A DNA stretch of 64,000 nt from Lingula anatina (taxonomy: Eukaryota > Animalia > Brachiopoda): positions 6,200,001 to 6,264,000 of the forward strand of contig CM120643.1 of the NCBI GenBank assembly GCA_051362555.1. The letters run 5' to 3'. Positions within the stretch are counted from its first letter, which is position 1, and each line of letters begins with the position of its first letter. A model generated the notes under the pieces. It worked only from the letters and a program-made list of their open reading frames with translations, did not search any database and was not told the DNA's origin. Made by a program: the position numbers and the translations under genes. This document shows positions 6,626-27,402 of this stretch, one piece after another.

Positions 6626-7040
6626 AATATTATTAGTTTAATAATATTATTTAATGTTGATTTATAATTAAAAGTTGGTTGGTACATTTATAATGTTGAA
6701 ATGATAATTCTCAGAAAAACAAAGGCCAAATACATTTTCAAGAAGTGCATTAAAGTTGAAAGTTATGAATACAGTTTATAAAATCATAATTATAATTACC
6801 TAAAATAATACACGTATGATAAATAATGACAATAACTGCATTGCAGACTTTCAATTTAATTTTCAAAGACATAAAAACTGTATTTACCGGTATAAACATC
6901 TGTACAGCGCTTTTTACTTACATTTGTGCATTAAAAATGTTCCCATGTAAATTTATATGTACATATTTCATAAGGAAACAAAAGCCTGAAATTCACTGCA
7001 AAGAGACTGTAGTTTGCCGCTTTTAAAATGTTCTCTCTCT

Positions 7041-7262: not shown

Positions 7263-7356
7263 CCCCACTGCACTGATGAATAAAAAAGTCACATCATATA
7301 TATATTATCTGGTTGGGGTTATGTGTGTAAATGAAATATCTTAAATATGACAGTTA

Positions 7357-7842: not shown

Positions 7843-8813
7843 AAGGAGGCATGAGAGAGAAAATATAACAACAGTTATAGGAGTCTGAAATTTTCTAAGT
7901 ATTTAATTTCTCTTTCTCACCTCGCTTTATCTATGCCTCTCTACAACTTCAACCCAGTTTCTCTTAAATAAAATTCTGCACTAATGAGCTAAATTAAATA
8001 AATAAACATTCTTTGATTACAAACAGCTCCAAAATAATCAGGTGGGAATTTACTAGGTACCAGTACTTATAACAGACATTAACAATGTGATGATTCAGTC
8101 ACCATTCTGACTTGCTTAATCCAGCATTGGTTTATTAGCACTACATGTACTTTAGGCAAGCTAACTCAATAAATAACTTTGGATATTTAAGATAAGAAAA
8201 AAATTGTCTTTTCATTCAATTTTATTTTTAAAAATCTACATAAAATTACAAAGTAAGCAACAAAAGTAATAATAAGTGCTTATCTTTTATTAAGACTACT
8301 ATGACATCACAACAGTACTGTACATATTAGTATAAAAGCTTCAATATATTTATTGCCAAAATTTGCTAAATTCTTTATTTTAAAGAAATATTAATGAAAT
8401 GATTTCCTCCATATTACTTACACAAAATTGCTGCAGGCATCTTTTATACTACTGGCAAACCATAAGATGAGCACTAACATAAGACTAGACAGCAAAGCTG
8501 GCAAAATATACAGACACAAAACACAAAACAAGGTGCAACAATAGAGTTAAATATATTTTTTTCTGTGACAGCACCGAATATGGGCCAAGGCCTATGGGTT
8601 TGCAAATTCACCAGTTTTACCATTAGTTATATAATAGCTTGTTTCAATACTTATAAAACTGTGCACACGTATTGGTAAAAATTGTCAAATCCTGTTAGTT
8701 TTTAACTCAAACAGCTTTTTTTTACTAAACAAAACCTCTCTGCATATTTGATGTAAAACAAAAACATGGTTTGGTATCTATGGTAAGACAGTCACCAAAA
8801 TACTTGCAAAAAA

Positions 8814-8846
<33 letters not shown>

Positions 8847-8900
8847 GATATTTTAAAATTTTTTTACTCAGTCAAAGTGGGGGGAGGGGGGGGGGGGATG

Positions 8901-9065
8901 CACCATGTTCAGAATGAACACCAGTGGATGTCTGGGGATGGCTACAGGAACATGGACCCTATCTCCTGATGTCAGGGAGGAAAAAAAATGGTTGGAGCCT
9001 GGTACACAAATCTTGACTGCATTGAGACAAATCATCTCCAACAAAAGATTTCAGGACATTATGTC
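8901..9065 (+). pseudogene. Kolobok-type transposase fragment
   Basis: Frameshifted HHVQNEHQWMSGDG..EHGP..EKKWLEPGTQILTALRQIISNKRFQD resembles the HHVxNxHxW...HGPL...KxWL...AL...RFLxD stretch of animal Kolobok transposases. Confidence 0.55.
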
Positions 9066-9089
9066 AGGAACCTTGGTTACAGGCACTGC

Positions 9090-9768
9090 AAAACTTCTAG
9101 AACACAGGATTGGGATGAGAAGATCTCCTTATTCCTCATGTCCTACCGCAGCTCACAACACGACAGCACTGGCTAAACCCCAAATCTAATGGTATTAGTT
9201 AGAAAAATTGATTTACCGGCCTATATTGTTTCTGGATGGCCATGTTACATGAAGTAGATAATTTTAATTTGGTGATGATTTTCCACTTTTCAGTATTTAC
9301 AACTAATGGGTGTGAATGAAAATTTTATACCATGTGAGACTCATGAATGATTGAAAAACTTGAGTAAAAGCCTAAATAGATCCTATGAAATGGCTCGAGA
9401 AAAACTGAAAAGTGTGCAGAAATGTCAAAAAACAGTTGTATGATGCAAAGTTGAGAGAGAGTGAATATACTTGTGGTCAGAAGGTATATTTGAGGGATGA
9501 AAGTCATAAAAATTGAGAAAGTAAGAAACTTAGACCCTTATATAGAGGACCATATGATGTTATCAAAGCATCCCCACCTCTCTATACAATTAAAGATAAA
9601 AAAGGAAAAATCCAGGTGGTACATCATGATAGATTGAGAAAATTTGTTGAAAGAGAGAGTGATTTTCAGTTGAATGAACCACAATTGGTGGAACCAATTG
9701 TAAAAAGATCAAGATTTGGTAGAGAAATTAAGATGCCATCTCATTTAAGAGATTTCGCCTTAGAATGA
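9090..9768 (+). pseudogene. Gypsy integrase, C-terminal half (core end plus GPY/F region)
   Basis: DWDEKISLFLMSYRSSQHDSTG*TPNLM...AREKLKSVQKCQKQLYD...KKLRPLYRGPYDVI...VVHHDRLRKF...RSRFGREIKMPSHLRDFALE*; internal stops. Confidence 0.9.
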
Positions 9769-9896
9769 TTATATTGATATATGTTTTGTTTATTAGTTAA
9801 GATATAATTGTATATAGATACTTCCTTAATTTTCGGCAGTGCTGAAATAAAAGGAACTTAATTTATTTATTTGTATTTTTTATTTTTTTTTAGACC

Positions 9897-10184
9897 ATGG
9901 ATGAATCAAACATATACAATATTCTCGCAGAGAAAGAGTATAATTGGTGCAGAAATTGGATCGAACAACCAAACACTCTGCTCAACATATCAATTAACAA
10001 TATAATACCACAAAATTTACCACAGTCCAGAATGTCAATGTACATGGGAACTCTACTTAATGAAAGAGTGCTATTAGAGAAAGGAATGGATTGAATGATT
10101 GAAAATATCTATTCATATCAAAACAATATAACGAAAGAAGAATGTGTAGATATCATACTTTACTTGAGAGATAAATTGTATGGC

Positions 10185-10190
<6 letters not shown>
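9897..10190 (+). pseudogene. Extra ORF A downstream of Gypsy pol (~97 codons, one internal TGA), followed by a long A run
   Basis: Poly-T + AG immediately before ACCATGG; the frame continues past TGA 10092-10094 (MIENIYSYQNNITKEECVDIILYLRDKLYGY*). Confidence 0.45.
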
Positions 10191-10226
<36 letters not shown>

Positions 10227-10793
10227 ATAATAAAGATATATTTAATAAAGTATATTATAGTTTGTACTTCCTATTATATTTCAGGTAATTTGATCAAAAC
10301 AACAGTACAAGTTGGTATAGGTTTTCTAAATATTTGTTTGAATTTTGTTGTTGAGCATAATACATTGAGCACTGCATGAATAGGTTGATAGCTACTTTTG
10401 TCTTTTTTGGATTATGGTTATTAAAAAAAAAAAAAATTAAATATTACCTAACACGGTTACACTGTTCAAACTAATATGTTGCAGTTTAGCATGTGTTTTG
10501 CATGTAATCGGATTAGAGGTTGTCAAGGTAATAATTCTTTTCTTTTTACACATTTTAATGATGGTATTTCATTTGGGGATTTGGTATAAAAGTAATATTT
10601 ATACATAGTAAAGGCGGCGATGCTGTAATACTATGTTAGTAATTAATGAAATACTATGTTTATGATGTAATACTGTGTTAATAATGTAAAATTATGTTTA
10701 TAATGTAATATGTTAATATTCATTTGAAAGAAAAGATCATTATCATGTATGTTCATTCAAGAAAATAAACCATTGTATAAGTTTATTTCAGAT

Positions 10794-11462
10794 ATGGATG
10801 ATCTAGACATGCTAGATGAAGCCTGTTTTGTCCCGGATTATGATGACACTGATTTGGTGGAAGATCCTACTGTCCTAATTGGTGAAGAGGGGAAGGAAGT
10901 TATCCACTCAAATTGCAGAAGGAAGAAACAGAGGAAAGAAGTTCAGTGTGGTTTGTGTCTGGTGTCCAGTGCTGACCTAAGTAGACATCTTGGACGTCAT
11001 GTGAAATCTGTTCATTTGCCATGGTATATGACTCCAGGATTGGTGTGCTGGTATTGCAGATCGATGGAGAAGGACAATTCGCTTTTGCGTAAACGTCATG
11101 GTGATGATCATTCGTATGGAACTGGTGAATTCGAGGAAAAACTATGGATCCAATTGGTGAATGGATTTATACATTTCCTGATATTAACATTAAATATGAG
11201 AAATATATGGGAACTGATGGACTATGTGAAAAGTGAAGGACTAGTAATGTTGCCAGATAACTGTTCCAAGGAGGACATTGACTTTGTAAAAATATACATT
11301 TATGGAAATGGTATGGAGCCTAAGACTGAGATTCTGAATTCTTTGTTGACTTTGTTTCACTGGAAAACTTTGTATCATCTGTTACAAAAACTTTCATCAG
11401 AGGATCGTGAACTCAGTAGTCATTGGTATCGGCGGATGGAATTTACTTTGCTATATGGATAA
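10794..11462 (+). CDS. Extra ORF B inside the Gypsy element; Cys/His zinc-finger-like protein
   Basis: Open 237-codon frame, likely start ATG 10794 after TTATTTCAG; acidic N-terminus, basic NLS-like RRKKQRK, CGLC..RHLGRHVKSVHLPWYMTPGLVCWYC..RH. Confidence 0.65.
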   Translation: MDDLDMLDEACFVPDYDDTDLVEDPTVLIGEEGKEVIHSNCRRKKQRKEVQCGLCLVSSADLSRHLGRHVKSVHLPWYMTPGLVCWYCRSMEKDNSLLRKRHGDDHSYGTGEFEEKLWIQLVNGFIHFLILTLNMRNIWELMDYVKSEGLVMLPDNCSKEDIDFVKIYIYGNGMEPKTEILNSLLTLFHWKTLYHLLQKLSSEDRELSSHWYRRMEFTLLYG

Positions 11463-11826
11463 AAAATGAACTATATAATGATTTGACATTTCACATTGAC
11501 ATTGTTATCATTACTAATGTTGTTTTGAGCAACTTTGAGTTAAAATCACTTTGTTTGCTTTTAAAGTTGATTTAAAGTGATAATGGATTTAAAACTTTGT
11601 TTTGCATTCCTAAGGATGAACATTTATGCTGAGAGATGGACTTGATTGACTTTACTTGTGTTAAAGTTAAATGTTGAATCTTGGCATAACAAGAATGAAC
11701 TTAATTGCATTACTTGCTCATTTTAAAGGTAAAGTACGATTACATTTGTTAAATTATAGTAATTGTTAGTTTAACAATTTAAAGTAATGGTTTATATTGT
11801 AATAATAGGGGGGAGTTTTGTTCGAC

Positions 11827-12187
11827 AAAAGGGGGGAGAGTGTGACGATGTAGTGTGTTAGTTGAGATTGTTTTACATTGCTACCGGTAGATGTCTCTAT
11901 AAGTAAAGTGTTGTGCGGTGTGCAAGTTTGAATCTCTCCTGTGATTGGTAACTTAATTAAAGGTAAAACTGTTCACTGTATAGTTGGTTCTGATTGGTAA
12001 ACGTGTACTATCTGAACATGTATATAAGGTCCGACTTGAAATAAATCGGTCTCTTTCTTGGGCTTTTGGCTACCTATTTGGTCTGCGAGTTATTATTTGG
12101 CTCCTTTTTTGGCTCTTAACTCTGAGATACCAGTAAGTTCATTGTTATTTGTACCTTCATAAGGCACTCGGCCGCGAAGGCGTAACA
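11827..12187 (+). mobile_element. Polypurine tract plus 3' LTR (11841-12187, 347 bp)
   Basis: AAAAGGGGGGAGAG abuts TGTGACG...CGTAACA inverted ends; two ATTGG (CCAAT) boxes, TATATAAG ~12021, AATAAA ~12039. Confidence 0.9.
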
Positions 12188-12590
12188 AAAGCTAATGTAG
12201 TAGGAATAAATAATGAAATAAATGGCTTTGATTGGGAAAACTTTTTTCGACACTTAGATAATGTGCATGAAATTGCTAGAAACTTTACAGACAAACTACT
12301 ATCTATCTTTAAGAAGTACATACCATAAAAAAATAAGAAGTATTAAAGCAAATGACAAGCCTTGGTTCTGTGACAGGTTACGGCATGAAATTCTCAGAAA
12401 AAAGAAATAATATGCTAAAATGAGAATTACTCCTAAGCAGGATAATACAAATGGTTATAAGGCTCAGTCTGCTCTGGTAAATAAACTGATAAAGGACACA
12501 AAGGAAGCCTATTACAATAGTCTAATTGATGGCCTTGATGAAAAATTAGACAGACGTAAACTGTACTGGCAAACTATTAACTGTACTCAA
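12188..12590 (+). pseudogene. LINE ORF2 fragment (endonuclease-RT linker)
   Basis: KANVVGINNEINGFDWENFF...FTDKLLSIFKKYIP..NDKPWF...NKLIKDTKEAYY...YWQTIN. Confidence 0.75.
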
Positions 12591-12889
12591 TTATATTGCT
12601 AATATGAAACCTGCTATTTCTCTACATTAGTATAACAGTAAAAAAACATATATTTACTTGTATTTGACCTTATAGTGTTATTTTATTTCAGCATAGGACA
12701 TTTACTCACATTTTTGAATATGGGAAACAGGAGAGGTTTGCAGTTGCCTCCATTTTGGAGAATACACTTGAAAATGTGGCTAAAAAGGTTCTTCAGATTA
12801 AACAAACCAGCATCAGGTACCGACAGTCCATTTTATTTACAAATGCATAAATGAAAATAGCTAGTATGTTTTTTATTCTGTTGTACGTA

Positions 12890-13198
12890 GCAGAGCAAGA
12901 GTTCTCTTGAAATTATTTTGTGCTCAGATTGATTGTTTGTATTCACCTCGAAATGAAACATACAATGTACATTGCTTTGTTCATTTATGTGACAAAGTAA
13001 TTAAAATTGGGTCCCTTATGGACACAGTCTTGTTTTTCTATGAAGACCTTAATGGGGAGTTGAGAAAACTATTCCATGGGACAAGCTCTGTGGAATTACA
13101 GATTTCATCTGTTGTACAGTTGTTATTCACTAACAATTACCAGATCTAGTGAAGCAATTAGTTCCAGGTTCAGAAATTGAGTCATTCTATTTGAAATT

Positions 13199-13234
<36 letters not shown>

Positions 13235-13440
13235 ATTACCTCACAACAGGTCACTACTTTTCGGACACACTTATGCAGTAGGGCATTTTGTCAGCTGTAA
13301 TCTTTTGGACAGAACTAGAGAATTGATAAAATATTTGTGGCCCAATCAAAAAGGTACACAATTTTGCCGTCTTCTCATGAATGGCATTACTTTTCATTCT
13401 CCTTCATACAGGAACTGTACAGACTGCAGAAAATTTCTGA
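12890..13440 (+). pseudogene. CACTA/EnSpm (Mirage-like) transposase C-terminal fragment
   Basis: LYSPRNETYNVHCFVHLCDKVIKIGSLMDTVLFFYEDLNGELRKLFHGT matches the YxxxxxTYNVHxLxHL...GPL..SxFxFExxNGxL motif. Confidence 0.8.
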
Positions 13441-13479
13441 TAAGTCTCATCACTTTTAATAAAGACGCAGGCATGGGCA

Positions 13480-14250
13480 CGTAAGTAGTAATATAATTAT
13501 TCCTATCACTTTAATTGGTCCCAGTCAACTTTAATTTTATCTCACTTTATTACCCTTTATTTAAAGTTGCGATAATTTGCAGCCAAATGGTCTGTCACTC
13601 CAATATATGAGGTATAAAACCAGGCAGCAGCCTAGAGAGTCGGGAATCGTGGACCGAACCTTGACTCTTCAACAGACAGATTAGAGAACTCAGAGTAAAA
13701 TATACCCCCGGCTATCTCTAAGAACACAGTATAGATTTGGCGACAGATTTCGCACACGATTCTGTTTTGAGATTTTTGTTATTGTCAGAGAGAACTGAAG
13801 CAGCACGCTGTGAAGATGGCAGAAGGACACAACAACCAAGAGCAAGACTCAGTTATCCCGCCAGGTATGGACAGGTTAGTGTATACTTTGGACATTTTGG
13901 CTTGAGATTTACAAGGTAAGCAACAAAGAGCAATTAGACAAAGTAGGATAGATAACGCATCATCAGGCAATAAGACCGTGTGATGGAAACATCCCGTCGG
14001 AGGTCTGGTCTTACATAGACGAGTTAGACGTCTTAAAAGTGAAATCTAAGGGGCCAAGTAATTTTTGCATTCTGTTAATGGGCAGGATATATTCTAAAGA
14101 AGAACGCCTTGACCCAACGAGGAACATAGGGGGCTTAAGGACAGCACAATATAACAAAAGACCAATCTGCTCACAAAGACTAGACCATACATATATCAAA
14201 AACAGTGTTCAGAAATTGTATCCATCTGTAATGAACGAAGAGCTATGGTG
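13480..14250 (+). mobile_element. Second LTR element: degraded 5' LTR, PBS and gag start
   Basis: TATAAAA ~13613, PBS-like TTTGGCGAC ~13736, then decayed MAEGHNNQEQDSVIPPGMDRL...CDGNIPSEVWSYIDELD. Confidence 0.5.
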
Positions 14251-14439
14251 ATGATGTCTCTCGGCGATGAACACTGCCAATCGAAATTTGAGGTGTTCAC
14301 AAAAGATCAACATATAGGAAAGCTAACACGTGTTTCCATACAATATGCCAAAGGCTTAGTTTGTCTGCAGATAAATGTGATCACATTCTTGGCTGATTGA
14401 GGCAACGTTTGAAAGAGCAACCAATTAACTTACAGACCA

Positions 14440-15755
14440 TGGCGCACCGTGGTAGAAAATGAAGAAGAAAAGCAGACAATTATCAAACATATGCACAGTG
14501 ACATTGAGTGAAATTTACAGATATTACTATTCTTTGACAACCTTTGGATTTATATTACTGTGAATGGAGTGTTAGTGATATGCATATACTGATATTACAA
14601 TGTACTACCAGGTGCTTTGTGCTTTCTTGTTGGGAAATGTTGTATGAAAATACATTTTCCAACAAGAAAGCACAAAGCACAGTCCTTATAATTACTATTT
14701 AATGTTTGGCACATAAGTAAATGATAAAGTAGACCCCATTTTAAAGTAACAACAAGTAAACTATTGTCCTCACTCTCTGAAATACAAGTGGTGTTTAATT
14801 CTGAATACTAAGTCCCATATTATAATATTGCCCTATTAATTGGAATGGTTCGTATGATAATCATGTTTTTGGTTGGTTTTAATGCGATTTCATTTTGAAT
14901 TGTCAGGTGGGGAGCACCAAAAAGGCTCCTGTCAGACCAAGGAAGAAGAGTTTGTGGCTGAAATAAATACAGAGGTTTGCCGCTCCCTCAGCATAGAGAG
15001 GTCTGTGACAAGTGCCATACTCAAACCAATGGTCTGGATGAGAGGACAAACCAGACGCTGAAGACTCGATTGAGGAAGCTCATTAATGAACACCAGAACG
15101 ACTGGGATACTTATTTGGAGGATGTGGCGTATTCGATCAGGACACAATTTTTCTAATGTTTGGGAGGCACCCTAGGTCTTTGAGAGAGGTAATTCTAGAT
15201 TAAAAATCTTAATGATTAAGTAAACAACATAAATTTTAGAACATTTTTATAATTATTTTCTGACATCTCAGTAATAGGTTTGTTACATCACTGAAATTGT
15301 GTTTGAAAAGCAGTCTATGTGTTGCCAAAATGTGTATTAGATATGATAAGCTTTGGTCCTTTCATTTATATAAAACCTATTTAATCTTTTATATCATGTA
15401 GACCTCTTTTAGATTATCAGTTATTTCTATATACGCTTAAATGGCCGCACTACAAATATTTTATTTACCTACCTATTTTTCATTCTTCTGATTATTTTAC
15501 TTAACAGGCTGTCTCCTAGTCATGATACTGATCCTGTCTTTATCTTAAATGAAGTGGGAAGCATGAAGCATTGCTCCTGTGTTCAAAAAAATAACTTGAT
15601 GAATTTTAAAGAGGTTTTCTAATTTCAATTGTGATTTCCATTTTTAGATGAATGCCAAAGATGGTGAAAGTATTGAAGCCATTTCTGTAAATGATGAAGT
15701 TCTAGAAGACATGGTCAACCACAGAGAGGCACTGCTAGATGTCACCAAGAAAGTT
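14440..15755 (+). pseudogene. Intron-containing Gypsy-like integrase (Ginger/GIN-type transposase) remnant
   Basis: WRTVVENEEEKQTIIKHMHSD; exon 14907-15188 (cag| ... |gtaatt) WGAPKRLLSDQGR.EFVAEIN...HTQTNGLDERTNQTLKTRL...QNDWDTYLEDVAYSIRT..MFGRHPR; next exon starts at 15648. Confidence 0.75.
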
Positions 15756-15859
15756 TACAAAGTTCATCTAGTTAATTCATTACGGCCACCATGCAATCAT
15801 TTAATTGAAATCATGTATGAGGGTAAGTCATTTAATTATATTAAATTATGATATTTTAG

Positions 15860-16292
15860 GCACAAAGAAAAACTGCAGAACCTAACATGGAGAGAGGTGT
15901 TTGCCATCTGCAGGAAAGATTATAGTAAGGCTTTGGCAATCATTGAACTGGTCCTCAGTCTACCAGCCAGTAGTGCAGAGAATGAGAGGGCATTCAACAG
16001 AATGAAGCTGATCAAAACAGCCCACAGGTCAAACTTATCCACCAGCTCGCTGGACAGTTTGATGACAGTACATCTGTTATCCAAACCTATAAGGCAGTTC
16101 AATCCTGATGCAGCAATTGATGATTGGTTTTCTGCAAACAGCAGGCGTCCTACATTCAGGGATGGCTTAACTAAGAAAAGCAGAAAATTGCACGCCATTG
16201 CTACCTCTAGTACCAGTCAGGAACATGAAACTGATGCAGTTATAGAGAATGATAAAGAAAATTTTATTAATCCCAATGAATTGGATGATGAA

Positions 16293-16328
<36 letters not shown>

Positions 16329-17089
16329 GGTTTTGGGGATGATGATGATGATATGATGGATGAGGACAAAATTTACGAAAAGCTAAAGGAACTAGCTGGG
16401 GTTTAGTTTTTTTTTTTAATGTGAATAAACCTTGATGAATTTTAGAGAATTGGGTTGATTTCAATTCTTTTAAATAATTTCAAAATAAAGATATGAAGAT
16501 TTAACTTTATTTGCTTTATTTTACTGGCGCATTTTAATAATAATTTTTAAAAAATGAAATTGCCAAGTATGCTTAAACCATCCACCCCTTTTTGATTCTT
16601 TTATAATTGAGTGTAAAAAATGTTTTATTCCCTGTCACGATTCTCTGGTCTATCAGGCACTGATGATGATAGCAAAATAATACAAATTCTCAATCCACAG
16701 TGTCGTGCAAGTGCATCAGCAGTGGCCAAGTTTATACAGTCAGTTATGCCTAAGTAGCAAATGCATATTGTACAAAATACTATATTCAGTATTATTATAT
16801 TGTGTCTTACTATTGTCAGCTATATGAATGAAGTAGTTAGCTTACATGTATTTTGGCAATGGAATGATCTAAAGAAGTTATACTTATTTAAGTGTATACA
16901 ATTACAATTTATGTAAAACTGTAGTTTAGAGAGCTTGTAAAATGTAACTGTACACATTTTAATGCTCAATAAAATAATAATAATTATTATTATTATAATT
17001 GGACCAGTGTCCCAAGGCCTGGGACCAATACCTCCAGAGTCAACTGGTCCAAGTGGACCAGTGCTGAAAAATTCCCATTTCCCTCCCTG
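15860..17089 (+). mobile_element. hAT transposon 3' part: ZNF862-like dimerisation domain with acidic tail, candidate TIR end CCCTG
   Basis: ORF 15897-16406 IELVLSLPASSAENERAFNRMKLIKTAHRSNLSTSSLDSLM...FNPDAAIDDW; AATAAA ~16424; GGACCA subterminal repeats ending TTCCCTCCCTG. Confidence 0.8.
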
Positions 17090-17264
17090 CGTGGTAATTT
17101 TTAAGTCGGCAGCCATAGCCATTGTCAGAGGTGAAAATTTTCACATACATTTCCATAATTATCGGACACTTCACTGCCCTTTGGCACATTGTATGGCAAC
17201 CTCAATAGGCCTACTTGGATTTTAACATCTCAGATTACTCGAGTTTCACCTTTTTATTCAACTA

Positions 17265-17267
<3 letters not shown>

Positions 17268-17314
<47 letters not shown>
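17268..17314. repeat. (TA)n microsatellite
   Basis: Seen directly. Confidence 0.95.
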
Positions 17315-17317
<3 letters not shown>

Positions 17318-18097
17318 GTCCCGCAACCAAACAGAGTCAATAGATAGAACCTTTCTTCAATCTATTGGAGGACTCCTCAACCAAGCTGTGACACTTATTA
17401 ATGGCGTTGTTGACAGGTCCAGATCCACAACTTCTACTTCTCGTGACCAGGAAAACGAGGGAGAGGAGATATGCTGGTTAAGATCTATGAAAATCTTTCT
17501 CCTTGTGTTTTGCAAGAAACTTACAAAAAAATTGAAATCAATGAAAAACCCTCTGCTCTGGCTCTGCTGCTACACTGTCTTCAGACTTATTCTAATTTAA
17601 AATGAATTAGCTACACCTAAAAAAATGTAATGAATAAAATAAAAGAATGAGTTATATAAGACATTTAACAAAAAGAATAAGCCTGTACAATCAGTCTTTT
17701 CATATGTTTTGTAGAAAAATTAGGCCAGGTCATTTTGAAAGAGGGGGAGATTATGAAGGTGGGGGCAATGAAAGACGAGGGTGAAGAGGACAATGCCAGT
17801 ATGTGGTATGCTGCCTATAGATAGAGCATACATATCCCTTTCAGCAAGAGGCAGACAGATAGCAGTTATCAAAAGCTTTTTTTTTAATTTTTTTTTTCTA
17901 AATCTGTATGGTTTTTGGATTGATCTTTTTTTCTAAATCTGTATTTTTTTATAAAAAGTTTTGGAATATCATAGAGAAGACAGAGTATCGGTGAATGTGG
18001 TAACCAATTGGATGGAAGGTTTTTCAGAGCATACTCATACTTAAATAGAATTCTTTTTTTTTTTTCGGAAAGCCAAAAGAAAGATGAAGGCGCTGCA

Positions 18098-18458
18098 GAT
18101 CCTGTCAGCCCAAGGGTGGCAGACTAAGGTGATCCTGTCAGCCCAAGGGTGGTAGACTGAGGTGATCCTGTCAGCCCAAGGTTGGCAGACTGAGGTGCAG
18201 CATGTACAAATCAAGAGCGCCATTGATATCAAGTACACATCTAGAGATGAAGAGTGTGATGAAGGATTCATCACACACACCCCATCCTGGCAAAGTGACA
18301 AATTTGCCCAGATTAAACATACCTTAGACAGGTGTTTTATTGAAAACAGCTCACACAAGAGCAGAAGGTTGCTGCAAAACAGGAAGATTGGAGCAACTCA
18401 CATCAAATCTGTCCCTAATTGTCCAGAGGATATCTCATGGATTATAAAAAGAGATTAA
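18098..18458 (+). pseudogene. 33-bp repeat x3 followed by a transposon accessory-protein C-terminus
   Basis: gatcctgtcagcccaagggtggcagactaaggt x3 (18098-18196); YTSRDEECDEGFITHTPSWQSDKFAQIKHTLD resembles the YMSxEES...PxWRS...LD motif of DNA-transposon accessory ORFs. Confidence 0.45.
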
Positions 18459-18753
18459 ACATTTCAACTGTTTTCAGTTTACCTGACCAAATGCTGTGTA
18501 ATTTCAAATAGTATAGAATTTTGGTTCATTATTTTTTGGGTTTTATATGCAGTTTCATTACAGACTGGAGGGACGGCTATGTACGTCGAGTTTACACCCG
18601 AAATGAAGTTACAGTTTCATAGCCAGCTGTTTCTTTTTTTATTGGCCATTTTTTAAGTCACATACATAACTGCAAGAAGTAATTTAATTTGAATATGTTA
18701 CAGGTAATGCACACATTTTTTATCTTTACTGAGAGTGAAACCTACTTGACATA

Positions 18754-18911
18754 CAGGGGCAGATACAGAGCTATTTTCTGACAGTCTTCCAAATTATGTT
18801 TGTTGATCCATCCTCCATTTTGACCGTCTTCCGACAGATAAAAAATTAGATACCTGTCAATGTAAACTTGAAAATCCGGAAGACCCAGAAGACGGCCTAA
18901 ATCCGCCCCTG
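18754..18911. mobile_element. MITE with CAGGGGC(G/A)GAT TIRs and 5-bp TSD ACATA (hAT5-like)
   Basis: acata|CAGGGGCAGAT...ATCCGCCCCTG|acata; homologous to 29069-29230 and 52427-52594. Confidence 0.85.
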
Positions 18912-19779
18912 ACATAGAATAAATGATGTAAGTTTAAATCGTGTGTTACTTGTCTTATCAAAATATGATTTTATCCCCGCGACTAATATTACATTTAATA
19001 AGCTACAAAAGTAGTAGAAATGTACTCTTTTCTATTGTTAATAGATGTAAAAATGTGATATTTCCTGTGTTAAAAAGGTGTACAAAATTTAGCCATTTGA
19101 GTACCTTTTATATAGCGAAATATCACATTCGTAGTAAAAAAGATATCTAAAAGTTGATTTTTGTGACACAAAAAGGTAAGGGAAGTGGGCCATTCATATG
19201 CCTTTCGCCATGCAAAAGTCTTAAGAATGTTGATCTTTATAATGCCTTTTTTGTCAAACAAAATCAATTTTGTCGCAAAAGAAAAGTTAACCTTTTGTGT
19301 GTAAAAAAGGAGAAGAAAAGTGGGCCATTTGTACATCTTTTTCTCTGTATAAAAGCCATTCAGAAGATTATATTTCCTAAAAATTCAAAAGGTCCAAGAA
19401 AGGTGTAGAAAGATGGATAAAAGAGGGCCTTTAAATCAACTTTCAGGAAATACAAAAGCCAAATTTTCATGCAGTGATAAGATACACTCCTCTTGGCCTC
19501 TGGTTTGGGGATACAACCCAGGCATTTTACTTAGCATTTTGGTACAAAATATACATAGCATTTTTATTTCCTTGATTTGTAGGCATGCAGAAGTGCTTGG
19601 GATAATCTCTTAGCTTGTTTCGGGTTGAGAAGAGTCTCTGGTAAGTTAATAGCGTTTCTAGTCTAACAAGCGCTTTGAAGGAGATAATACTGTATGTTTC
19701 AACATACAGTTGATACTAATTTTATTGAAAACGTTTTAAATGTTGTAACTGCACCTTACCAAGCCGTATGCTTTACCTG

Positions 19780-19895
19780 GGTAGGCCTGTTACAGCTGGA
19801 ATTCACATTCATCACGTTGGATCACGTTGGGTTGTGTTTGCAAGTTTTAGCAACAAAGAACTTGTGTATGGCTCTCTAACACCAAGAATGACACA
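19780..19895 (+). pseudogene. Ulp1/C48-like protease fragment, copy 1
   Basis: RPVTAGIHIHHVGSRWVVFASFSNKELVYGSLTPRMT, clearly homologous to the 21741 ORF. Confidence 0.65.
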
Positions 19896-20431
19896 GGGAT
19901 ATGAACATAAAGAAATACCACAATTACAGGTCCTTGAACCAGATGGAACCCTGATGGACACAAAAAAAATTTAAGAAGGACCTAGAAAAGTGTAAAATGG
20001 AACTGACCCAGGATAACACAGATTTTTAGATAATGGGATAATTTTTTTTAATCAAGAGAAGTCTTCATTTCCTCTATTTCCCACAAATGCCTGTTATAGC
20101 TGTTGGCAAGTTTGTCAATTTTGCTCATTAGTGATTGTTGGCATTTTTTGTTTAAATCTAGGGTTATGCATACAAAAATCAAACCACCCAGCCACTTAGA
20201 CTTACAACACAGATGATACAAAAAAAGTTTTTCATGTTGACCAAAACATGAAAATAAAAGTTTAAAATGCCATTTTGGCTAATTTCCCCCATGCAACTGG
20301 ATTTTCCCATATGCATTAGCTAAAGTGAACCTTCCCAAGTTTTTCTGATGTGCAGACATTTAAGCCCTGTGCTGAATACATGTAGATTCTTGCAAAACTA
20401 ATAAGGTATCTAAAAACTGATTTCTTCACAG

Positions 20432-21118
20432 CACACAGCCAACAGAAATTAGAGCAACTGCAAGTGATGACACTTTGTCTAGATCATTCCCACCAACAAG
20501 TTCTCCTTCCATTGAGGGACCTTCCAATCCCATTTCAAACTTGGAGACACAACAGGAAGAGGAACCCTTAGGCAAAGGCACCATTTCACTCTGTGTTAGA
20601 GAAACAGTAGCTGAAATGTAAGTGTAGCAAATAGAAGTCCCTCCTCAAATTTTTTGTGAAGTCTATTTATCATGTTGTCTACCGGTACTGTACATGTAAT
20701 GAAATAACGCAGTCCAAAATTGTTAATTATTTTAACAGGGAATCTTGCAATGACCCAGTCACAATTCTCAGGGCCATCACCAAGAAATATTTAATGGGTC
20801 GCCCTATTGATGTTGAGCAGGAAGATGAGTTCTGTGAAGGAGACACAACATTAGTCCATGTTTCTCGCTCTACTATCTTTGAAGATGGTATGGAAATACT
20901 CACAGATTCAACTGTCAACTATCGCCTGCCATTGGAGATAGCATATTATGGAGAGGAGGCAGTTGACCTTGGAGATCCTAGAAAACAGTTCTTGACCTCA
21001 ATGCTGCACACCATAAAAGATAGATTATTTGAAGACGGTGAAGATGGTAAAGTTTTACTTGTTGGAAATCCTTACCATCAATGTAAAAATCATTACCGTG
21101 GTGCTGGGATACTTTCTG
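20432..21118 (+). pseudogene. G2E3-like HECT E3 ligase fragment, two exons (~20432-20617, 20739-21118)
   Basis: Phase-2 GT-AG intron; VHVSRSTIFEDG...RLPLEIAYYGEEAVDLGDPRKQFL matches the HECT N-lobe VxR...LxVxFxGExAxDxGGPxREF; no C-lobe. Confidence 0.75.
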
Positions 21119-21740
21119 GTAGGTTGATGGATCATTAAAATCTGTATTTTTTCAAATGCATGTAGATTTAATAAGTTATGACCTTGTTACAAGTGGATAT
21201 AAGTGTTCAAATAAAATGTACTAGACATGACTATCCAAAACTGCACTTGGCTTCTTTTCTTAAAATTTACTAAATCTTTATTGAATCTAATTTATATTAT
21301 TTTTCAGGGAAAAGTGTGTTGATGATGCTTCTTATTACTCAATTTTTTATTCTATACACCTAAAAAAACATTTTATGTTTTATTGAAATTCACTGAATAA
21401 CAGGTACCTATTTTAATAATTTACTAAATGTTTATTATACAAACTATAAAATGGTGTTTAAAATTGGAATATGATATTGAACTAGTTTATTGTTTCAAGT
21501 GAACCATGCAGTCATGTGATAAGGCATCCCTTCGGTCTTTGTGTCACAAAGTATTTTCAAGAGTCACTGGCAAGATGGGCCAATTGAAGCATATCACAGA
21601 GCTTGTTACCAAGATTACACCAACATGGAACACCTTTACAAGGCTGAAAAAGAAAAGGTCATTAACTGATGACGACAATTTTACAGAAGTGTGGTTGAGT
21701 ACCACCTGAGGCATGGTCTCAGTAATAGCTTTAAAATACA

Positions 21741-22175
21741 TTGCTCTTGGTCTCTGATTTGGAGGTTCAACCTGTGGTTAGAAATGGTATTCAAGTCCAT
21801 TATGTTGGATCACATTGGCTTGTCTCTGCACATTTTAGCAACAAAGTAGTTGTGTACAACTCTCTAACTCCAAGAATGACACCAAAAGGGCAGCTGTTGA
21901 ATTTGTATCCAAATTCCTGTCAAGGAGCTGATGGTGCACTGAGTGTTGAAATGTATTCTCCACAGAGACAAGTTGGTGGTCAGGATTGTGACCTATTTGC
22001 CACTGCAACAGCTGTGTGTTTTGCTATAACAAGGTTGACCTGTATGACATTGTTTTCAGTCAACACTTGGATAAGAGTTTTTGTAGGGGGGGGGGGGGGG
22101 GAACTGGTAATGTTTCAATGTGAGGTTAAGACCCAATCAGTAAAGGTGACATATATAACTATATTAAAAGAGTAG
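21741..22175 (+). pseudogene. Ulp1/C48-like cysteine protease domain, copy 2
   Basis: IQVHYVGSHWLVS...VVVYNSL...QRQVGGQDCDLFATATA matches HW...YDSL...QxQ..GxDCGLFA. Confidence 0.75.
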
Positions 22176-22473
22176 TTTTACAATCATTACTAGTACATGG
22201 TTTTAAAATACAAAAAATACAGGTAGACCTCTAAACAACTTATCTTAGGACCTAATCTAATATTTCGGCATTTATTTTAAGATAAGTGTGACAAAGATGT
22301 TGAAAAAGATGTCCTAACTGACCCTGCTGTTAAAATCACCAATAGAAATTAACCCATCACTGGCACTGGACATAGAAAAAATTCTAAATGACAATATCCC
22401 TGGGTCTAGTGGACAGCCAGGCCCTGTACCCCCCCCCCCCCCCAACCAGACCAGTGTCCAATTTGGAATAGAC

Positions 22474-22684
22474 TTGAATCTTGCAAGACTATACAGAAGA
22501 GATGTGCTGGCTTTGGATGATGAGGAACACAATACTAAGGCAAACAGATACCAAGCCTACAGACTATTCACGCTATGGGTACATGGTCGTTTGGGAGCTG
22601 GCAATTAGACAAGTGATCCCATCTTGCTCTGTGTGGGCAATAAGAGACAAGTTCCCAGATCCATATGGACAATATCGGGGGTAA
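22474..22684 (+). pseudogene. P2X7-ballast-like / Kolobok KolX C-terminal fragment (one frameshift)
   Basis: NTKANRYQAYRLFTLWVHGRLGAGN/RQVIPSCSVWAIRDKFPDPYGQYRG*; a related stub DNASMWYAAYR lies at ~17790-17822. Confidence 0.8.
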
Positions 22685-22699
22685 ACAGTAGAATTACAG

Positions 22700-22867
22700 C
22701 TTAAGTTTCAAGTCATTGAAATGGAGAGATGACTGTACTGGTTAAAAATCCTAGATATGCAGCGCCTTGCATTTGATGTAGCAGAAAATGCACAGGTCGC
22801 CCATTCATTCAACAGAGAGTTATGGATGGCAGGGCAAGACTGGGTGCAAGGATTTCTCTCTCCTCAC
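22700..22867 (+). pseudogene. pogo/Tigger-family transposase fragment (CENP-B-type HTH)
   Basis: LKFQVIEMER*LYWLKILDMQRLAFDVAENAQVAHSFNRELWMAGQDWVQGFLSPH matches DxRRLAF..A......HPF......AGxDWxxGFLxRH. Confidence 0.7.
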
Positions 22868-23489
22868 GGCTTTTAAAAGCATTCATCAGTCTCTGTGTTA
22901 ATATGGACAGAAGTTGGAAGTTAGTTTTGAGAGATAGCTTTACTGTTTGATCATAAGTTTAGCTCTTTATTCTGTCCATGTTTGACATTTTCCTGTCTTT
23001 TAAAGCAGAGAATTAGAAAGTAGAATTGTGAAAGAAACGGAATAAGAATAGTTGAATGATATAGATACAATTGAGATAGAGTTCAATTGTTTAAGCCCAA
23101 TTTTGACTTTTCCTATCTTATCAGATTAGCGAATTGATTGATGATTAAAGAATAGTAAATTATCAAACCTTATTAAAAGTTTTACAATCAGACTTTAATA
23201 AATTACGTTTCTGTAAGACTCAGTCAAATATAAAGTCTAGTCACTGCGAGAAAGGAAATTAAAAACCTTACGAAAGAGGCTTGAGAACCCAGAGTTTGTT
23301 GTTTACACAAATGCGCCTGGTTGCCAGAATGGTTAAGACACCACAGGACACATGATGGATTCCAGTTGTTCAGGGCGGGATATGTTTATTTTAAAACTCT
23401 CACTCTGTCAATTAGTAGTAATTTTTAGCCCAAGCTGGAATTTTTCCACATCATTGGTTTACTGCAGAGGTGTTAGAAGTTTTTTTAAG

Positions 23490-24110
23490 TTTTCAAATGT
23501 GATTTGGAATGGACTTAGCCAGGCCACTGAATAAAACGCCAAGAGGAAACGGGTACATTACTGTTCTAACAGACTACCTGACAAAGTGGCCAGAAGCAGA
23601 ATTAATTCCAAGCAAGGAAGCCTCAGTTATTGCTATATCTATAATGAAAGTTGTGTGTTGTTATGCTAGTGTCAAGGTGCTAATTCCTTGCCAAGGACTC
23701 AAATTCCGTAACCAAGTAAATGAGAGATTATATCAGCAACTTGGCATCAATAATCATCGTAGAACAGCCTGCCACCCTCAGGCCAATGGACAATGTGAAA
23801 GCTACAACAGGACTGTCTGCAACTATCTCACAAAGTATGTAAATGCCCATCAAGACAACTGGGATGAGTTCATTGACCCATGTCTCCTTGCATACAGAAC
23901 TACAGACGCCTTTCATTTTGGCATTTGGCAAAGAGGCATCTCTTCTAAATGAAGACAAATTTCCAATTGGAAACCCCACCTCAGAGGTAACAGAGCAAGA
24001 AGCCCTTGACAGCCATCAGATATGTTTTCCAAGTTGATTGAAGCCCAAGAGAACATTTCCAGAGCACAGGTCCATCAAAAGAATGGGTACAATGCACGCC
24101 ATGACACTCC
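23490..24110 (+). pseudogene. Gypsy/Ginger-type DDE integrase core, degenerate
   Basis: GMDLARPLNKTPRGNGYITVLTDYLTKWPEA...CQGLKFRN...HPQANGQCESYNRT...QDNWDEFI...LAYRT..TPF. Confidence 0.9.
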
Positions 24111-24519
24111 CTTGATGTGTATAGAGCAGTGCATTCAGTTTAAATTTATAGTCCAATAGAAAGTGACATGTACATGCAGCAAAATCATTGGTTTCGATCT
24201 CCCCTCTATAAGTGCCATTTATCCAGAAAGATAAGCAGCAAAAACATGAACAATTATGTCTGACTACACCCATCCTGCACACGGTCTTTTTAACTTCTTA
24301 ATAAAGCTACTGTAGACTTTCATGTTTTAAAGGATTCAAAAGGTTTTTAAAGAGTTTTTACCCATCTGCTGTCTCTCTTTTTCACAACATAAAAAATGGA
24401 ATTTGTAGCAACTATATTTTAGCAACTATATTGATATCTTATATTTTGTACACTTTACCTGAATAGCAATCCAATTTCCTTAATATGTGAATTTTGACAG
24501 GTAAGAGGTCTAAAATTTT

Positions 24520-25378
24520 GTTGTATCAAATATAGCAGCTAAGGCAGAACTAGGCATATTCCCAATTACACATGACATAATTGGTCATGCTACATCCTAT
24601 TGGCAAAGATTTTCTGAAATGTCAAAGCAGCGCATGGCAAAAACAATGTATGAATATGAAGCAAAACATGACACACAGATAAAAAATTGGTCAAATCTAA
24701 TCAAAACACCGACTAATACCCCCTCGAAAGCAGAAATAAAAAATGCACTGGAAAGTCACTATACCTTTTTGTTTCTCAAAGAAATAGAGCGAGAAAACAG
24801 CATACTACGTACATATTGATTATTTAAAACAAATTATGAAAGGGAAGTGTACACAACAGCACCTATACCAAAACATGAAATGCAAAATTTGGCAAAATTT
24901 AGAACAGGGGCACACGACTTGGAAATCCAAAGAGGCAGATACCGAAAACCAAAACCAATACCCCCTGAAGAAAGGATCTGCAAGTTATGCTCAGATGAAG
25001 TCGAAAAAAAAATACACTTTCTTTTAAAATGCCCCTTACTCACCAAACACATGGAGACCCTAAAACCAGATCCTACACAAACCCCAGAGGGCCAGTTCAA
25101 ATGTATAATGCAGTCAAACGATTTAGATGTTATAACGAATGTGGCCCACTATATCACAATGTGTAATAAAGAAAGAAAAATATTCTCAACCAACCACCAC
25201 CTAGTCAACCTAAGTAACTGAGCATATACTGCAATTGTAAAATCTGATCGCAGTTATTTTATAAACAATATTGTAATTTATTATTGTAATTTTAGTTATA
25301 TGGTTATATAATGTATACTGTTAGGTCATAGTCGTTGTAAAAAATGTACTTGAACCGCAATAAATAATAATAATAATA
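24520..25378 (+). mobile_element. LINE 3' end (ORF2 C-terminus, 3' UTR, (TAA)n tail)
   Basis: KAELGIFPI...LRTY*...LAKFRTGAHDLEIQRGRY...ERICKLCSDEVEKKIHFLLKCP; AATAAATAATAATAAT tail. Confidence 0.85.
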
Positions 25379-25970
25379 ACAAGGCAGCAAAGCTGTCAAA
25401 TGTACAGACAAAAAGCAGGAAATAACTATGCACAAAATAGACTACTGTCAATTCTGGTGCAAAAGTACATTATGTTGAACTGCAAATTCAACATCAAATT
25501 TTAATTATGCTCAACAGGTAATACCAATGTAAATAAAATGTGTAACAAGCATAAGGCTTCAAGCCCATGGGAGTTCAAGTTCACACTTTGAAAATGTATA
25601 ACTTCCAGAAAAAGAAGCCAAGCAGTCTGCTTTTCCAACTCAGGCTGCATGCCCATTTTTCGAACTTGACCTGCGTTTTAGTAAGATCGATTACTCCTGT
25701 GAGTTTCATGACAACAGGCCTATCGGTTTTCCTTGGAATGTGTTTACAGTGTTGCATACATGCTGAAAAGTGAAAAAAAGCATGACTTCTACAATAATGG
25801 CCCGATCATGCTGATTTTCGAACTTGACCTGCGTTTTATGAATATTCATCAGCTCTGTAAATATAAAGCCCAAAAGTAAAACTGCCTTCCACTTATCATG
25901 TTTACAAGGAAAGTGCACGGCGACGACAGACCCAGGTGATGGCAATATGTACAGACACATCTGTGTCTGT
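25378..25970 (-). mobile_element. HINE (non-autonomous Helentron) family 1, internally deleted copy abutting the LINE tail
   Basis: Both termini match the 32587-34385 element. Confidence 0.85.
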
Positions 25971-26159
25971 TTATTTATAACAATTTATTTAAACATGCTC
26001 ATTTTCAATGCAGCCAGACATCAACAATAGACGAAATCCGAATGAAAACAACTGTAGATATTTATTAGAAATCAATTGTGTTAAATAGTTCATGTTTTCT
26101 TTGTCTAACAAATCCTATCATTGCTACATTACACTATATACCTTTCATACTTTGGGCTT

Positions 26160-26470: not shown

Positions 26471-27114
26471 CATCTGACAAATCATTTAACAATGAACTTA
26501 TAATAATTTCATAAATTCACAAAATGACAATATTTAGTAATTAAAATAAATATCAGAATCAGAAACATAGATAAAAATACACAAAAATAACTACATTGCT
26601 ACTTCAATTTTATATACTCAGGAATACTATGACATCAAACCAAACTGCTAAAAATAAAACAATATCATGGAATTAGAATTAGAAAACAAAAATACAGTTT
26701 ATCATCAGTTATAGGGTAAACAACAGATGTGTCACAAAGTGCTGACTATGGCAATGATACTGGACAGACACAGTGATCAGAATATAGACAGACTGAGTGT
26801 CTGTATATAATAAATATGTGATAAAATTTGCAATTATACCTTAATGAACTCGCAATAACAGAGATCATCTATAACACATCATATCTGACCTGAAATATAA
26901 ATTCACATTTAAACATTTTCACTGGTGCTCTTTTCTCTTCAGTGATGGCTTATTGTCTACCACAATCTCGCTGTATATGCTACCTCTACTAGTACTGTAA
27001 CAGTTTCCATGCATATGGGGAAAATTATTATAACACATCACAACTGAGCTGAAATATCAATTCACTTTTAAATATTTCCATTGTGTCTATTTGTCTTAAG
27101 TGATAGAGTATTGT

Positions 27115-27402
27115 CTAACACAATCTCCTTGCTTTATATACCCTGCCTCTATAGTTTCCATGCATATGGGAGAAATTGATTCTTTGTGTTACCTGGAACC
27201 CACATTTGTTGTGTAATTGTACTGTTCCATATAACTGGCTCCACAGGATCTGCTGTGTTTTGAAGTCTTGTTCTGGGTGGTTCTGGCAGCACTCTCTCTC
27301 ACTCAGTATAAAACTGACCTCTTGGTCTGCCAGCAGCTCTTTACACAATTCCAGATGTGTATTTGCTAAAAATGTAGATGAAATGAGTGTAACTGTTTGC
27401 AA
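27115..27402 (-). pseudogene. P-element/THAP9-like transposase C-terminal fragment
   Basis: LELCKELLADQEVSFILSERECCQNHPEQDFKTQQ...HGNYRG resembles ELxxxLL....YILSExFxQDPLExYFxxQR...GNxRG. Confidence 0.55.

What the first reader, a model, noticed from the sequence alone, without database searches (positions are those of the whole stretch)
8900..25380. 16-kb mosaic of ~15 unrelated transposon gene fragments, all on one strand: candidate uni-strand piRNA cluster
Seen: Kolobok transposase, Gypsy IN+LTR, LINE linker, CACTA, LTR/gag, Ginger, hAT, accessory ORF, two Ulp1, HECT, KolX, pogo, a further integrase and a LINE 3' end all read on +; I found no recognisable TE coding motif on - in this span. 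If 15 pieces were independent, the chance of one shared orientation is 2 x 0.5^15, about 6e-5; the true number of independent insertions may be lower and detection was by eye. Known: flamenco-type clusters collect TE fragments antisense to their transcript. Inference: the locus is transcribed on the minus strand as a piRNA precursor, an anti-TE memory archive that samples DNA transposons and their accessory genes, not mainly LTR elements.
Basis: partly seen in the sequence, partly recalled or inferred. Interest (0 to 1): 0.85.

Follow-up and report, generated by a model that had tools for sequence, protein, structure and literature searches.

The report
Antisense transposon archive in a brachiopod
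In a lamp-shell (brachiopod) genome, 16 kb of broken transposon genes all face one way and sparse RNA matching them comes from the opposite strand, next to a spliced RNA that likely drives it, so the locus is likely a source of transposon-silencing small RNAs (piRNAs) of a kind known from slugs and mammals, though the small RNAs themselves were not examined.

Summary
The strand bias is real. Eleven pieces in 8.9-25.4 kb were oriented with tools (Gypsy-type integrase plus LTR, CACTA, two Ginger-type integrases, hAT, KolX, two Ulp1-like, HECT-like, two LINE tails). All read +; five more do so by eye only. No minus-strand piece was found (Pfam 0 of 75 minus ORFs; composition score 12 v 1).

New here: stranded polyA RNA of one study (3 runs), calibrated on a GT-AG joint, shows a spliced minus-strand 'head' RNA starting near 31.0 kb. 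Sparse reads over the block lie about 10:1 on that same strand, antisense to every piece. Where the head is off, this excess is absent. A CpG-poor domain spans 5.5-29 kb.

Best reading (0.65): a uni-strand piRNA precursor made by read-through of the head, like mammalian piC-DoGs and Arion slug clusters. Untested: piRNAs, and head-to-block continuity; most head reads differ from this copy. It is not flamenco-like by content, and DNA-transposon-rich clusters are already known in Lymnaea. The scan noted this layout in several other animals; my searches found no brachiopod cluster in print.

The parts
30918..31200 (-). Likely promoter and first exon of the head RNA. The donor at 30918 is shown by reads; the start near 31.0 kb is inferred from depth.
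   Evidence: Joint 28953-30918, ends CT..AC, 19/21/43 reads, all first-mate +; CpG o/e 1.0 in 30918-31550; GC-box-like word by eye
28719..28953 (-). Head exon 2 with two donor-like ends (28746, 28719). Reads also join both back to the 28953 acceptor (tandem exon in another copy, or circular RNA).
   Evidence: joints; splice contexts
26900..27421 (-). Decayed P-element-like transposase tail (label by eye), tandemly duplicated and strongly expressed in study P5. Probable last head exon; its splice to exon 2 was not seen.
   Evidence: Depth 69-86 v 0-0.25 in X12-X14, 0 in X16; 37-54 molecules begin at 27142; duplication; no informative Pfam hit
25378..25970 (+). Complete high-copy HINE/Helentron-type element at the right edge of the block (class by eye)
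24500..25377 (+). LINE 3' end with (TAA)n tail
   Evidence: tblastx E 4e-11 to 6.4-6.6 kb; zf-RVT E 0.087; tail
23480..24135 (+). Ginger1-type integrase
   Evidence: PDB foamy-virus integrase E 3e-6; 5 homologues at 53-62%, 3 of 5 with rve+OTU; OTU or Ulp1 marks Ginger1 (PMC2836005)
22700..22875 (+). pogo-like HTH piece (by eye only)
   Evidence: Recalled motif; no PDB or Pfam support
22330..22690 (+). KolX-like piece (accessory gene of Kolobok)
   Evidence: Pfam P2RX7_C E 1.1e-6; KolX resembles the P2X7 C-terminus (PMC9587614)
21500..22170 (+). Ulp1-like protease piece B
   Evidence: Atlas C48/C5 clusters at 0.90-0.92; PDB gave nothing
20420..21125 (+). HECT-like piece; transposon origin not established
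   Evidence: 6 of 6 PDB hits are HECT E3s, E 0.03-0.07; no paper found
19440..20030 (+). Ulp1-like protease piece A
   Evidence: 80% over 106 nt to piece B, same strand
18753..18910 (.). High-copy MITE with terminal inverted repeats; cannot be oriented
17317..18440 (+). Unassigned accessory-type coding exons (by eye)
   Evidence: Composition score segments 17711-17815 and 17955-18431
16922..17000 (+). Second LINE tail, nested in the hAT 3' region
   Evidence: 83% to 6032-6111, inverted
15765..17090 (+). hAT 3' end: last exons, intron and element end
   Evidence: Dimer_Tnp_hAT E 6e-6; end sequence
14250..15760 (+). Ginger-type integrase exons with introns retained
   Evidence: tblastn E 3e-10 at 14899-15144; splice sites by eye
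13580..14250 (+). Partial LTR, PBS-like word and gag-like piece (by eye only)
   Evidence: no Pfam hit
12690..13485 (+). CACTA-type transposase C-terminal part
12189..12610 (+). LINE linker piece (by eye only)
   Evidence: translation; recalled motif
9081..12188 (+). 3' part of a Gypsy-type element: integrase C-terminus, unnamed 244-aa ORF, polypurine tract, LTR 11842-12188
   Evidence: Atlas gave no name for the ORF
8900..9080 (+). Kolobok-like transposase piece (by eye only)
   Evidence: Recalled motif; homologue search negative
8484..8531 (+). 48-nt HINE-type 5' end, 79% to the 5' end of the HINE at 25378
   Evidence: E 6e-5; family D19
6032..6637 (-). Minus-strand LINE 3' end with AATAAA at 6059-6064; possible 3' end of the unit (inferred)
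   Evidence: CpG boundary near 5.5 kb

Best explanation
The block is a densely packed set of transposon remnants that all read on +, and it is likely the body of a uni-strand piRNA precursor, made by low-level read-through of a spliced minus-strand RNA that likely starts near 31.0 kb. Steps: (1) Shown: a spliced, polyA-library, minus-strand head RNA matching 26.9-31.0 kb is present in one study's samples and absent in two other studies. (2) Shown, sparse: RNA over the block lies mainly on the same strand, antisense to every coding piece, at about 0.1-0.4% of head depth. (3) Inferred: head and block are one transcription unit of about 25 kb, possibly ending at the sense LINE poly(A) signal near 6.06 kb. 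(4) Inferred: the read-through RNA is cut into piRNAs that silence active relatives of these elements. (5) Inferred: the pieces arrived as DNA insertions (introns and element 3' ends are kept), antisense copies were retained, and deletions pruned them to abutting fragments.
For: Orientation: 11 of 11 tool-oriented pieces on +, 0 of 75 minus ORFs with a Pfam hit, 12 v 1 composition segments.

Strand calibration: the 1964-nt CT..AC joint is read 83 times, all first-mate +, so first-mate + means minus-strand RNA.

Block RNA, 15 of 19 bins in 12168-24840: minus-RNA depth sums 5.66, 1.79, 3.31 v plus-RNA 0.10, 0.47, 0.49 in X12, X13, X14, roughly 25 v 2 read pairs. Of those bins 11 favour minus, 1 favours plus and 3 are empty. 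X16, where the head is at 0, gives 0.12 v 0.58; X15 is likewise near zero.

CpG o/e is 0.27, 0.34 and 0.14 across 5.5-29 kb, against 0.94 to the left and 1.0 at the head start. This is the pattern expected of a methylated transcribed region in invertebrates (PMC8330077, passages).

The block is 3.6% self-repeat against 50% in 25.4-58.9 kb, and about 81% of it lies in named pieces (hand-set borders).

The same layout is a top piRNA cluster in Arion (PMC11615739, section 9). Both PIWI groups occur in every lophotrochozoan phylum examined (PMC11114477, passages).
Against: No small RNA was examined, and no read or joint links head to block.

Block coverage averages about 0.24x and is patchy. It comes from one study, with about 6% of each run read. 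The 4 dropped bins (two over the MITE, two over G/C homopolymers) are less biased: all 19 bins give 27.1 v 10.3, and the two homopolymer bins favour plus RNA (1.47 v 1.81).

Most head reads differ from this copy: 27261 T>G in 228 of 228 reads, 27171 A>G in about 80%, loose ends at 28890. DNA word depth is 4213 at 26.7-27.3 kb against 134-613 in most block bins (not a copy number). The expressed head may therefore be a paralogue. Some block reads also carry fixed differences (16667, 16685).

Reads on the high-copy HINE show the same strand excess even in runs without the head, so repeat-derived reads can be strand-biased for other reasons.

AATAAA is not depleted on the minus strand (29 v 24) and splice motifs show no strand bias. 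CpG loss is not unique to this locus: 0.32 at 40-48.9 kb and 0.42 at 50-59 kb.
Confidence: 0.65

Rival explanations
1. The block is an intron or unprocessed downstream tail of the minus-strand RNA. Sense insertions were purged because their splice and poly(A) signals disturb the transcript, and little or no piRNA is made.
For: Sparse, patchy minus-strand reads fit pre-mRNA or run-on. The CpG-poor domain extends on both sides of the block. No small-RNA data were available.
Against: It does not explain dense packing of low-copy coding pieces while the genome's common HINEs and MITEs are nearly absent (3.6% v 50%). The head itself carries a sense P-like remnant. AATAAA shows no strand purge. No canonical joint skipping the block was among the rows shown (15 shown, 36 not).
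Confidence: 0.18
2. The block is cargo of a compound Helentron: a HINE-type 5' end at 8484 and the complete HINE ending at 25970 bracket it in one orientation, and it was copied here or captured stepwise. This concerns origin and is compatible with piRNA output.
For: A 48-nt, 79% match to the HINE 5' end, same strand, E 6e-5.
Against: Recognised pieces are transposon-type, not host genes (HECT uncertain). The left end is short and diverged, whereas other HINE 5' ends in the window are 98-100% identical. HINE copies are common here, so a chance bracket is plausible. No joint from about 8480 to 25971 was among the X1 rows shown (36 rows not shown). The 8505-25377 joints are explained by the shared 22 nt. 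I could not confirm in print that Helitron cargo is co-oriented.
Confidence: 0.1
3. The block is an inert transposon graveyard whose co-orientation arose by chance or from a few nested events, and the antisense reads come from other loci.
For: p is only 0.008-0.001 for 8-11 pieces and the window was chosen after the fact. Read numbers are small, and alleles and paralogues cannot be told apart.
Against: The RNA strand was predicted before it was measured and agrees. Block bins are low in DNA word depth. The antisense excess appears only where the head is on.
Confidence: 0.07

Closest known systems
Uni-strand piRNA clusters of the slug Arion vulgaris (PMC11615739, section 9 read)
   Same: Densely packed transposon fragments on one strand with RNA from the other, in a lophotrochozoan
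   Different: There the piRNAs are sequenced; here only long RNA was seen, and the animal is a brachiopod
piC-DoG, piRNA clusters downstream of genes in mouse, human and hamster, including non-coding Zim2 (PMC11615739, passages)
   Same: A spliced upstream RNA, condition-specific signal beyond its main 3' end, and dense antisense transposon fragments directly downstream
   Different: Read-through is inferred here, not shown. The head is transposon-derived, probably multi-copy and has no recognised product. The cargo is mostly DNA transposons and their accessory genes.
flamenco and flam-like clusters of Drosophila (PMC10643416, passages)
   Same: Discrete promoter, spliced precursor, fragments antisense to transcription
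   Different: Flam-syntenic loci reach 227-1085 kb and their bias is driven by Gypsy alone. This unit is about 25 kb, with 2 of about 16 pieces LTR-type.
Lymnaea stagnalis and Crassostrea gigas piRNA clusters (PMC6128900, passages)
   Same: Content enriched for Gypsy and for DNA transposons such as Kolobok and hAT
   Different: Those clusters are enriched for young elements; the pieces here carry stops and frameshifts (age against active copies not measured). Insertion orientation was not covered in the passages I saw.
Antisense Tirant insertions in host 3' UTRs (PMC13226689, abstract only)
   Same: An antisense insertion in any transcribed exon can start piRNA production; a plausible founding step
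   Different: A single insertion there, a multi-family archive here

Membership tests
Uni-strand piRNA cluster | Produces 24-32 nt, 5'-U, PIWI-bound small RNAs | not testable with these tools
Uni-strand piRNA cluster | Small RNAs come from one strand | not testable with these tools
   Only long RNA was examined
Uni-strand piRNA cluster | Dense transposon fragments in one orientation | tested here: met
   11 of 11 tool-oriented pieces on +; 0 of 75 minus ORFs hit
Uni-strand piRNA cluster | Transcribed antisense to those fragments | tested here: met
   About 25 v 2 read pairs in 15 of 19 bins, 3 runs of one study, strand calibrated on a splice joint; sparse, and locus of origin not proven
Uni-strand piRNA cluster | One long spliced precursor from a discrete promoter | tested here: inconclusive
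   Spliced head seen; continuity with the block not shown; most head reads differ from this copy
piC-DoG | Same-strand upstream gene with read-through past its poly(A) site | tested here: inconclusive
   Head RNA upstream, many molecules begin at 27142, block reads co-occur with the head across 3 studies; no spanning reads
flamenco / flam-like | Strand bias carried by Gypsy LTR elements, which dominate the locus | tested here: not met
   2 of about 16 pieces are LTR-type; CACTA, hAT, Ginger, KolX and LINE share the bias
flamenco / flam-like | Hundreds of kb long | tested here: not met
   Block 16.5 kb; CpG-poor unit about 25 kb
Compound Helentron with cargo | Element 5' end and 3' hairpin bracket the cargo in one orientation | tested here: inconclusive
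   48 nt at 79% on the left, complete HINE on the right
Compound Helentron with cargo | Empty site or second copy of the bracketed unit | tested here: inconclusive
   No such joint in the 15 rows shown for X1, 36 not shown; no genome held

The most novel reading that the evidence does not exclude
The head is a dispersed, transposon-derived promoter and exon module, present in many copies, that seeds uni-strand piRNA clusters wherever it lands, or the archive itself moves as HINE-bracketed rolling-circle cargo. Brachiopod anti-transposon memory would then be built from mobile, reusable parts, sampling low-copy transposases and their accessory protease and ligase genes gene by gene.
Probability: 0.15. 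Interest if true: 0.75.

Novelty: new member of a known kind. Interest (0 to 1): 0.42.

Why it matters
If confirmed, it would be a piRNA cluster from a phylum for which my searches found none described (listings only, passages). It comes with a candidate promoter, spliced head and 3' end, so the read-through model can be tested directly outside mammals and flies. It also lists the element families that the host likely targets. The kind of locus is known, and the scan has noted the same layout in several other animals, so the surprise is modest.

Tried and rejected
No whole genome is held, so there is no genome-wide strand background, copy count or empty-site search.

Sequencing-run search: no RNA holder listed and no small-RNA library among the 21 runs. 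Nine DNA runs from 3 studies hold 27-48% of the words of 15.5-25.4 kb; only X1 was laid.

A six-frame Pfam scan of long read-through frames could not be run at that size. Stop-free ORFs were scanned instead (149 in the block, 274 outside), and 26 short read-through frames, 23 of them plus-strand (targeted, not a symmetric test). Pfam is insensitive here: it missed even the clear integrase at 23.5 kb.

No support from tools for the Kolobok piece, the pogo piece, the gag piece, the LINE end in PDB, Ulp1 in PDB or a name for the 244-aa ORF. The LINE linker was covered only by the Pfam scan (no hit).

Strand bias of poly(A) and splice motifs: none.

A protein-coding host gene upstream: the subtilase at 59-62 kb and decayed LDLa exons at 47-48 kb are on minus but far away, beyond CpG-rich breaks, and RNA there was not examined. 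The head is the nearer candidate. A hypothetical splice of the three head exons gives an ATG frame of 39 or 113 aa depending on the donor; that splice was not seen, so 'non-coding' is only likely.

I recalled that Kolobok transposase and KolX face opposite ways, which would make their shared strand telling. The passages read did not confirm it, so it is not used.

No paper linked HECT domains to DNA transposons under my terms.


Full report
Organism. The subtilase at 59127-59834 (minus) has Lingula anatina proteins as its 14 best hits, the top one 79% identical, and scan notes on this genome call it a brachiopod. No whole genome is held.

Observation. I read 8.0-27.0 kb and its ORFs. A strand-symmetric Pfam scan of all 149 stop-free ORFs of 45 aa or more in the block gave 8 hits among 74 plus ORFs and 0 among 75 minus ORFs. 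Three are transposon families (Integrase_p58_C, Dimer_Tnp_hAT, P2RX7_C) and five are weak and probably noise. The 274 ORFs of 50 aa or more outside the block gave 11 hits, 9 minus and 2 plus, none a transposon family. P2RX7_C marks KolX of Kolobok (PMC9587614, passages). The 23.5-kb piece matches foamy-virus and Ty3 integrases and five proteins at 53-62%, three with an OTU domain. That is the Ginger1 layout; Ginger1 also carries Ulp1 domains and introns (PMC2836005, passages). These five proteins also hit 14899-15144 (E 3e-10) and, weakly, the Gypsy piece, always on +. The 12.9-13.4-kb piece matches two proteins at E 4e-28 and 2e-29, one with DUF4218, which I recall as CACTA-associated. The Ulp1-like pair is 80% alike and on one strand, with Atlas leads to C48/C5 proteases. 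The HECT-like piece has six weak PDB hits, all HECT ligases. Two LINE-type tails match the minus-strand LINE at 6.0-6.6 kb in inverted orientation. That makes 11 of 11 tool-oriented pieces on +. Kolobok transposase, LINE linker, LTR/gag, accessory ORF and pogo rest on recalled motifs; searches failed or were not run. A database-free composition score gave 12 plus v 1 minus segments in the block, against 4 v 5 in 31-64 kb. With 8-11 independent pieces the chance value is 0.008-0.001, not 6e-5, and the window was selected after the fact, so independent evidence was needed.

Anatomy. About 81% of the block falls in named pieces (hand-set borders). By eye the pieces abut directly, several keep introns, and the Gypsy, hAT and LINE pieces keep their 3' ends. 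The intron-bearing pieces are therefore DNA copies, not processed transcripts. The block is 3.6% self-repeat against 50% in 25.4-58.9 kb. Summed DNA word depth in run X1 is 134-613 in 16 of the 18 bins from 12.7 to 24.7 kb, against more than 100,000 on the MITE and HINE (not a copy number). It is a collection of low-copy coding remnants, not of this genome's commonest repeats.

RNA. No listed holder was an RNA run and no small-RNA library was listed. I laid six of nine same-species RNA runs; about 6% of each was read, 25% of X18. In X12, X13 and X14 (study P5) a joint 28953-30918 with ends CT..AC is read 19, 21 and 43 times, always first-mate +. This fixes first-mate + as minus-strand RNA and shows a spliced head RNA. 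Depth is 69-86 over 26.8-27.5 kb in these runs, 0 in X16, and 0.1-0.3 in X15 and X18. Over 12168-24840 I dropped 4 of 19 bins (two on the MITE, two on G/C homopolymers). The other 15 give minus-RNA sums of 5.66, 1.79 and 3.31 against 0.10, 0.47 and 0.49. That is roughly 25 v 2 read pairs (nominal p 6e-6, from depths converted to pairs; duplicates not removed; one study). Eleven bins favour minus, one favours plus and three are empty. All 19 bins give 27.1 v 10.3. X16 gives 0.12 v 0.58, and X18 is unstranded. Against this reading: no read links head and block; most head reads differ from this copy (27261 T>G in 228 of 228, 27171 A>G in about 80%, loose ends at 28890); the head has high DNA word depth (4213); and HINE reads show the same strand excess in runs without the head.

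Sequence footprint. CpG o/e is 0.94 in 1-5500, 0.27 in 5501-8899, 0.34 in the block, 0.14 in 25971-29050, 0.67 in the head's first intron and 1.0 at the head start. Low CpG o/e marks methylation, which in invertebrates falls mostly on gene bodies (PMC8330077, passages). The left boundary lies about 0.5 kb past the AATAAA of the minus-strand LINE tail at 6059, a plausible 3' end. Other parts of the window are also CpG-poor (0.32 and 0.42), and transposons may be methylated on their own, so this supports the unit only weakly. Poly(A) and splice motifs show no strand bias.

Mechanism. Most likely (0.65), a CpG-rich promoter drives a spliced RNA that mostly ends near 27.1 kb. A small share reads on through the archive and is cut into antisense piRNAs. 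The head RNA and the antisense block RNA are shown; the continuity, the piRNAs and the selective history are inferred. Rivals: an intron or run-on tail with purged sense insertions and no piRNA (0.18); cargo of a compound Helentron bracketed by the 48-nt end at 8484 and the HINE at 25378-25970 (0.10); an inert graveyard (0.07).

Comparison. It works like the Arion clusters and mammalian piC-DoGs (PMC11615739; section 9 read, other passages). Membership cannot be filed as proven, because the defining small RNAs were not testable. It fails two flam-like features, Gypsy-only bias and size (PMC10643416, passages). Kolobok- and hAT-rich clusters are known in Lymnaea (PMC6128900, passages). A single antisense insertion in a transcribed 3' UTR can start piRNA output (PMC13226689, abstract). 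Searches for 'Lingula + piRNA' and 'brachiopod + small RNA + piRNA cluster' listed no paper on a brachiopod cluster (listings only). PMC11114477 (passages) reports both PIWI groups in each lophotrochozoan phylum. I read no supplements; cluster tables there, and piRNAclusterDB (PMC8728273, listing only), could bear on the novelty claim. The scan has noted the same layout in sea urchin, octopus, acorn worm, tunicate, lizard and others (unchecked notes, not evidence).

Verdict. A real feature and probably a new member of a known kind, with better long-RNA support than layout alone. Interest 0.42.

Noticed in passing
window 28719-28953 (-): Reads join both donor-like ends of head exon 2 back to its own acceptor (9/17/16 and 1/0/4 reads). 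This is either a circular RNA or a tandemly repeated exon in another copy; a 73% copy of the acceptor region lies at 27893-27989.
   Followed up: partly
window 25378-25970: RNA reads on the high-copy HINE come overwhelmingly from one strand in all stranded runs (e.g. 331 v 10, 175 v 18, 28 v 1), including runs without the head. The HINE family may be transcribed in its own right or be oriented in 3' UTRs.
   Followed up: no
window 29051-30917: GC-rich, CpG-richer insert in the head's first intron, with plus-strand RNA reads at 29.5-30.8 kb, opposite to the head. Unidentified element.
   Followed up: partly
window 59124-62387 (-): Subtilase (S8) gene of an expanded Lingula family whose next-best hits are mostly bacterial or unnamed metagenomic proteins, with a few fungal; possibly an old horizontal acquisition.
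   Followed up: no
window 47274-48330 (-): Decayed run of LDL-receptor class A repeats with stops (Pfam Ldl_recept_a E 1.4e-4).
   Followed up: partly
window 10189-10223, 13202-13233: A35 and A32 tracts inside transposon coding pieces; the second expands a lysine run relative to homologues. They would be U tracts in the minus-strand RNA.
   Followed up: no
window 43902-46780, 41883-43076, 32759-33146, 53519-53911: Tandem arrays of 159-194-bp units; the 159-160-bp arrays lie within HINE-type elements.
   Followed up: no
window 10728-11462 (+): 244-aa ORF with zinc-finger-like motifs between the Gypsy-type integrase and the LTR; no Pfam family and no named Atlas match.
   Followed up: partly
window 14612-14680: 29-bp, 97% inverted repeat inside an intron of the Ginger-type piece.
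   Followed up: no
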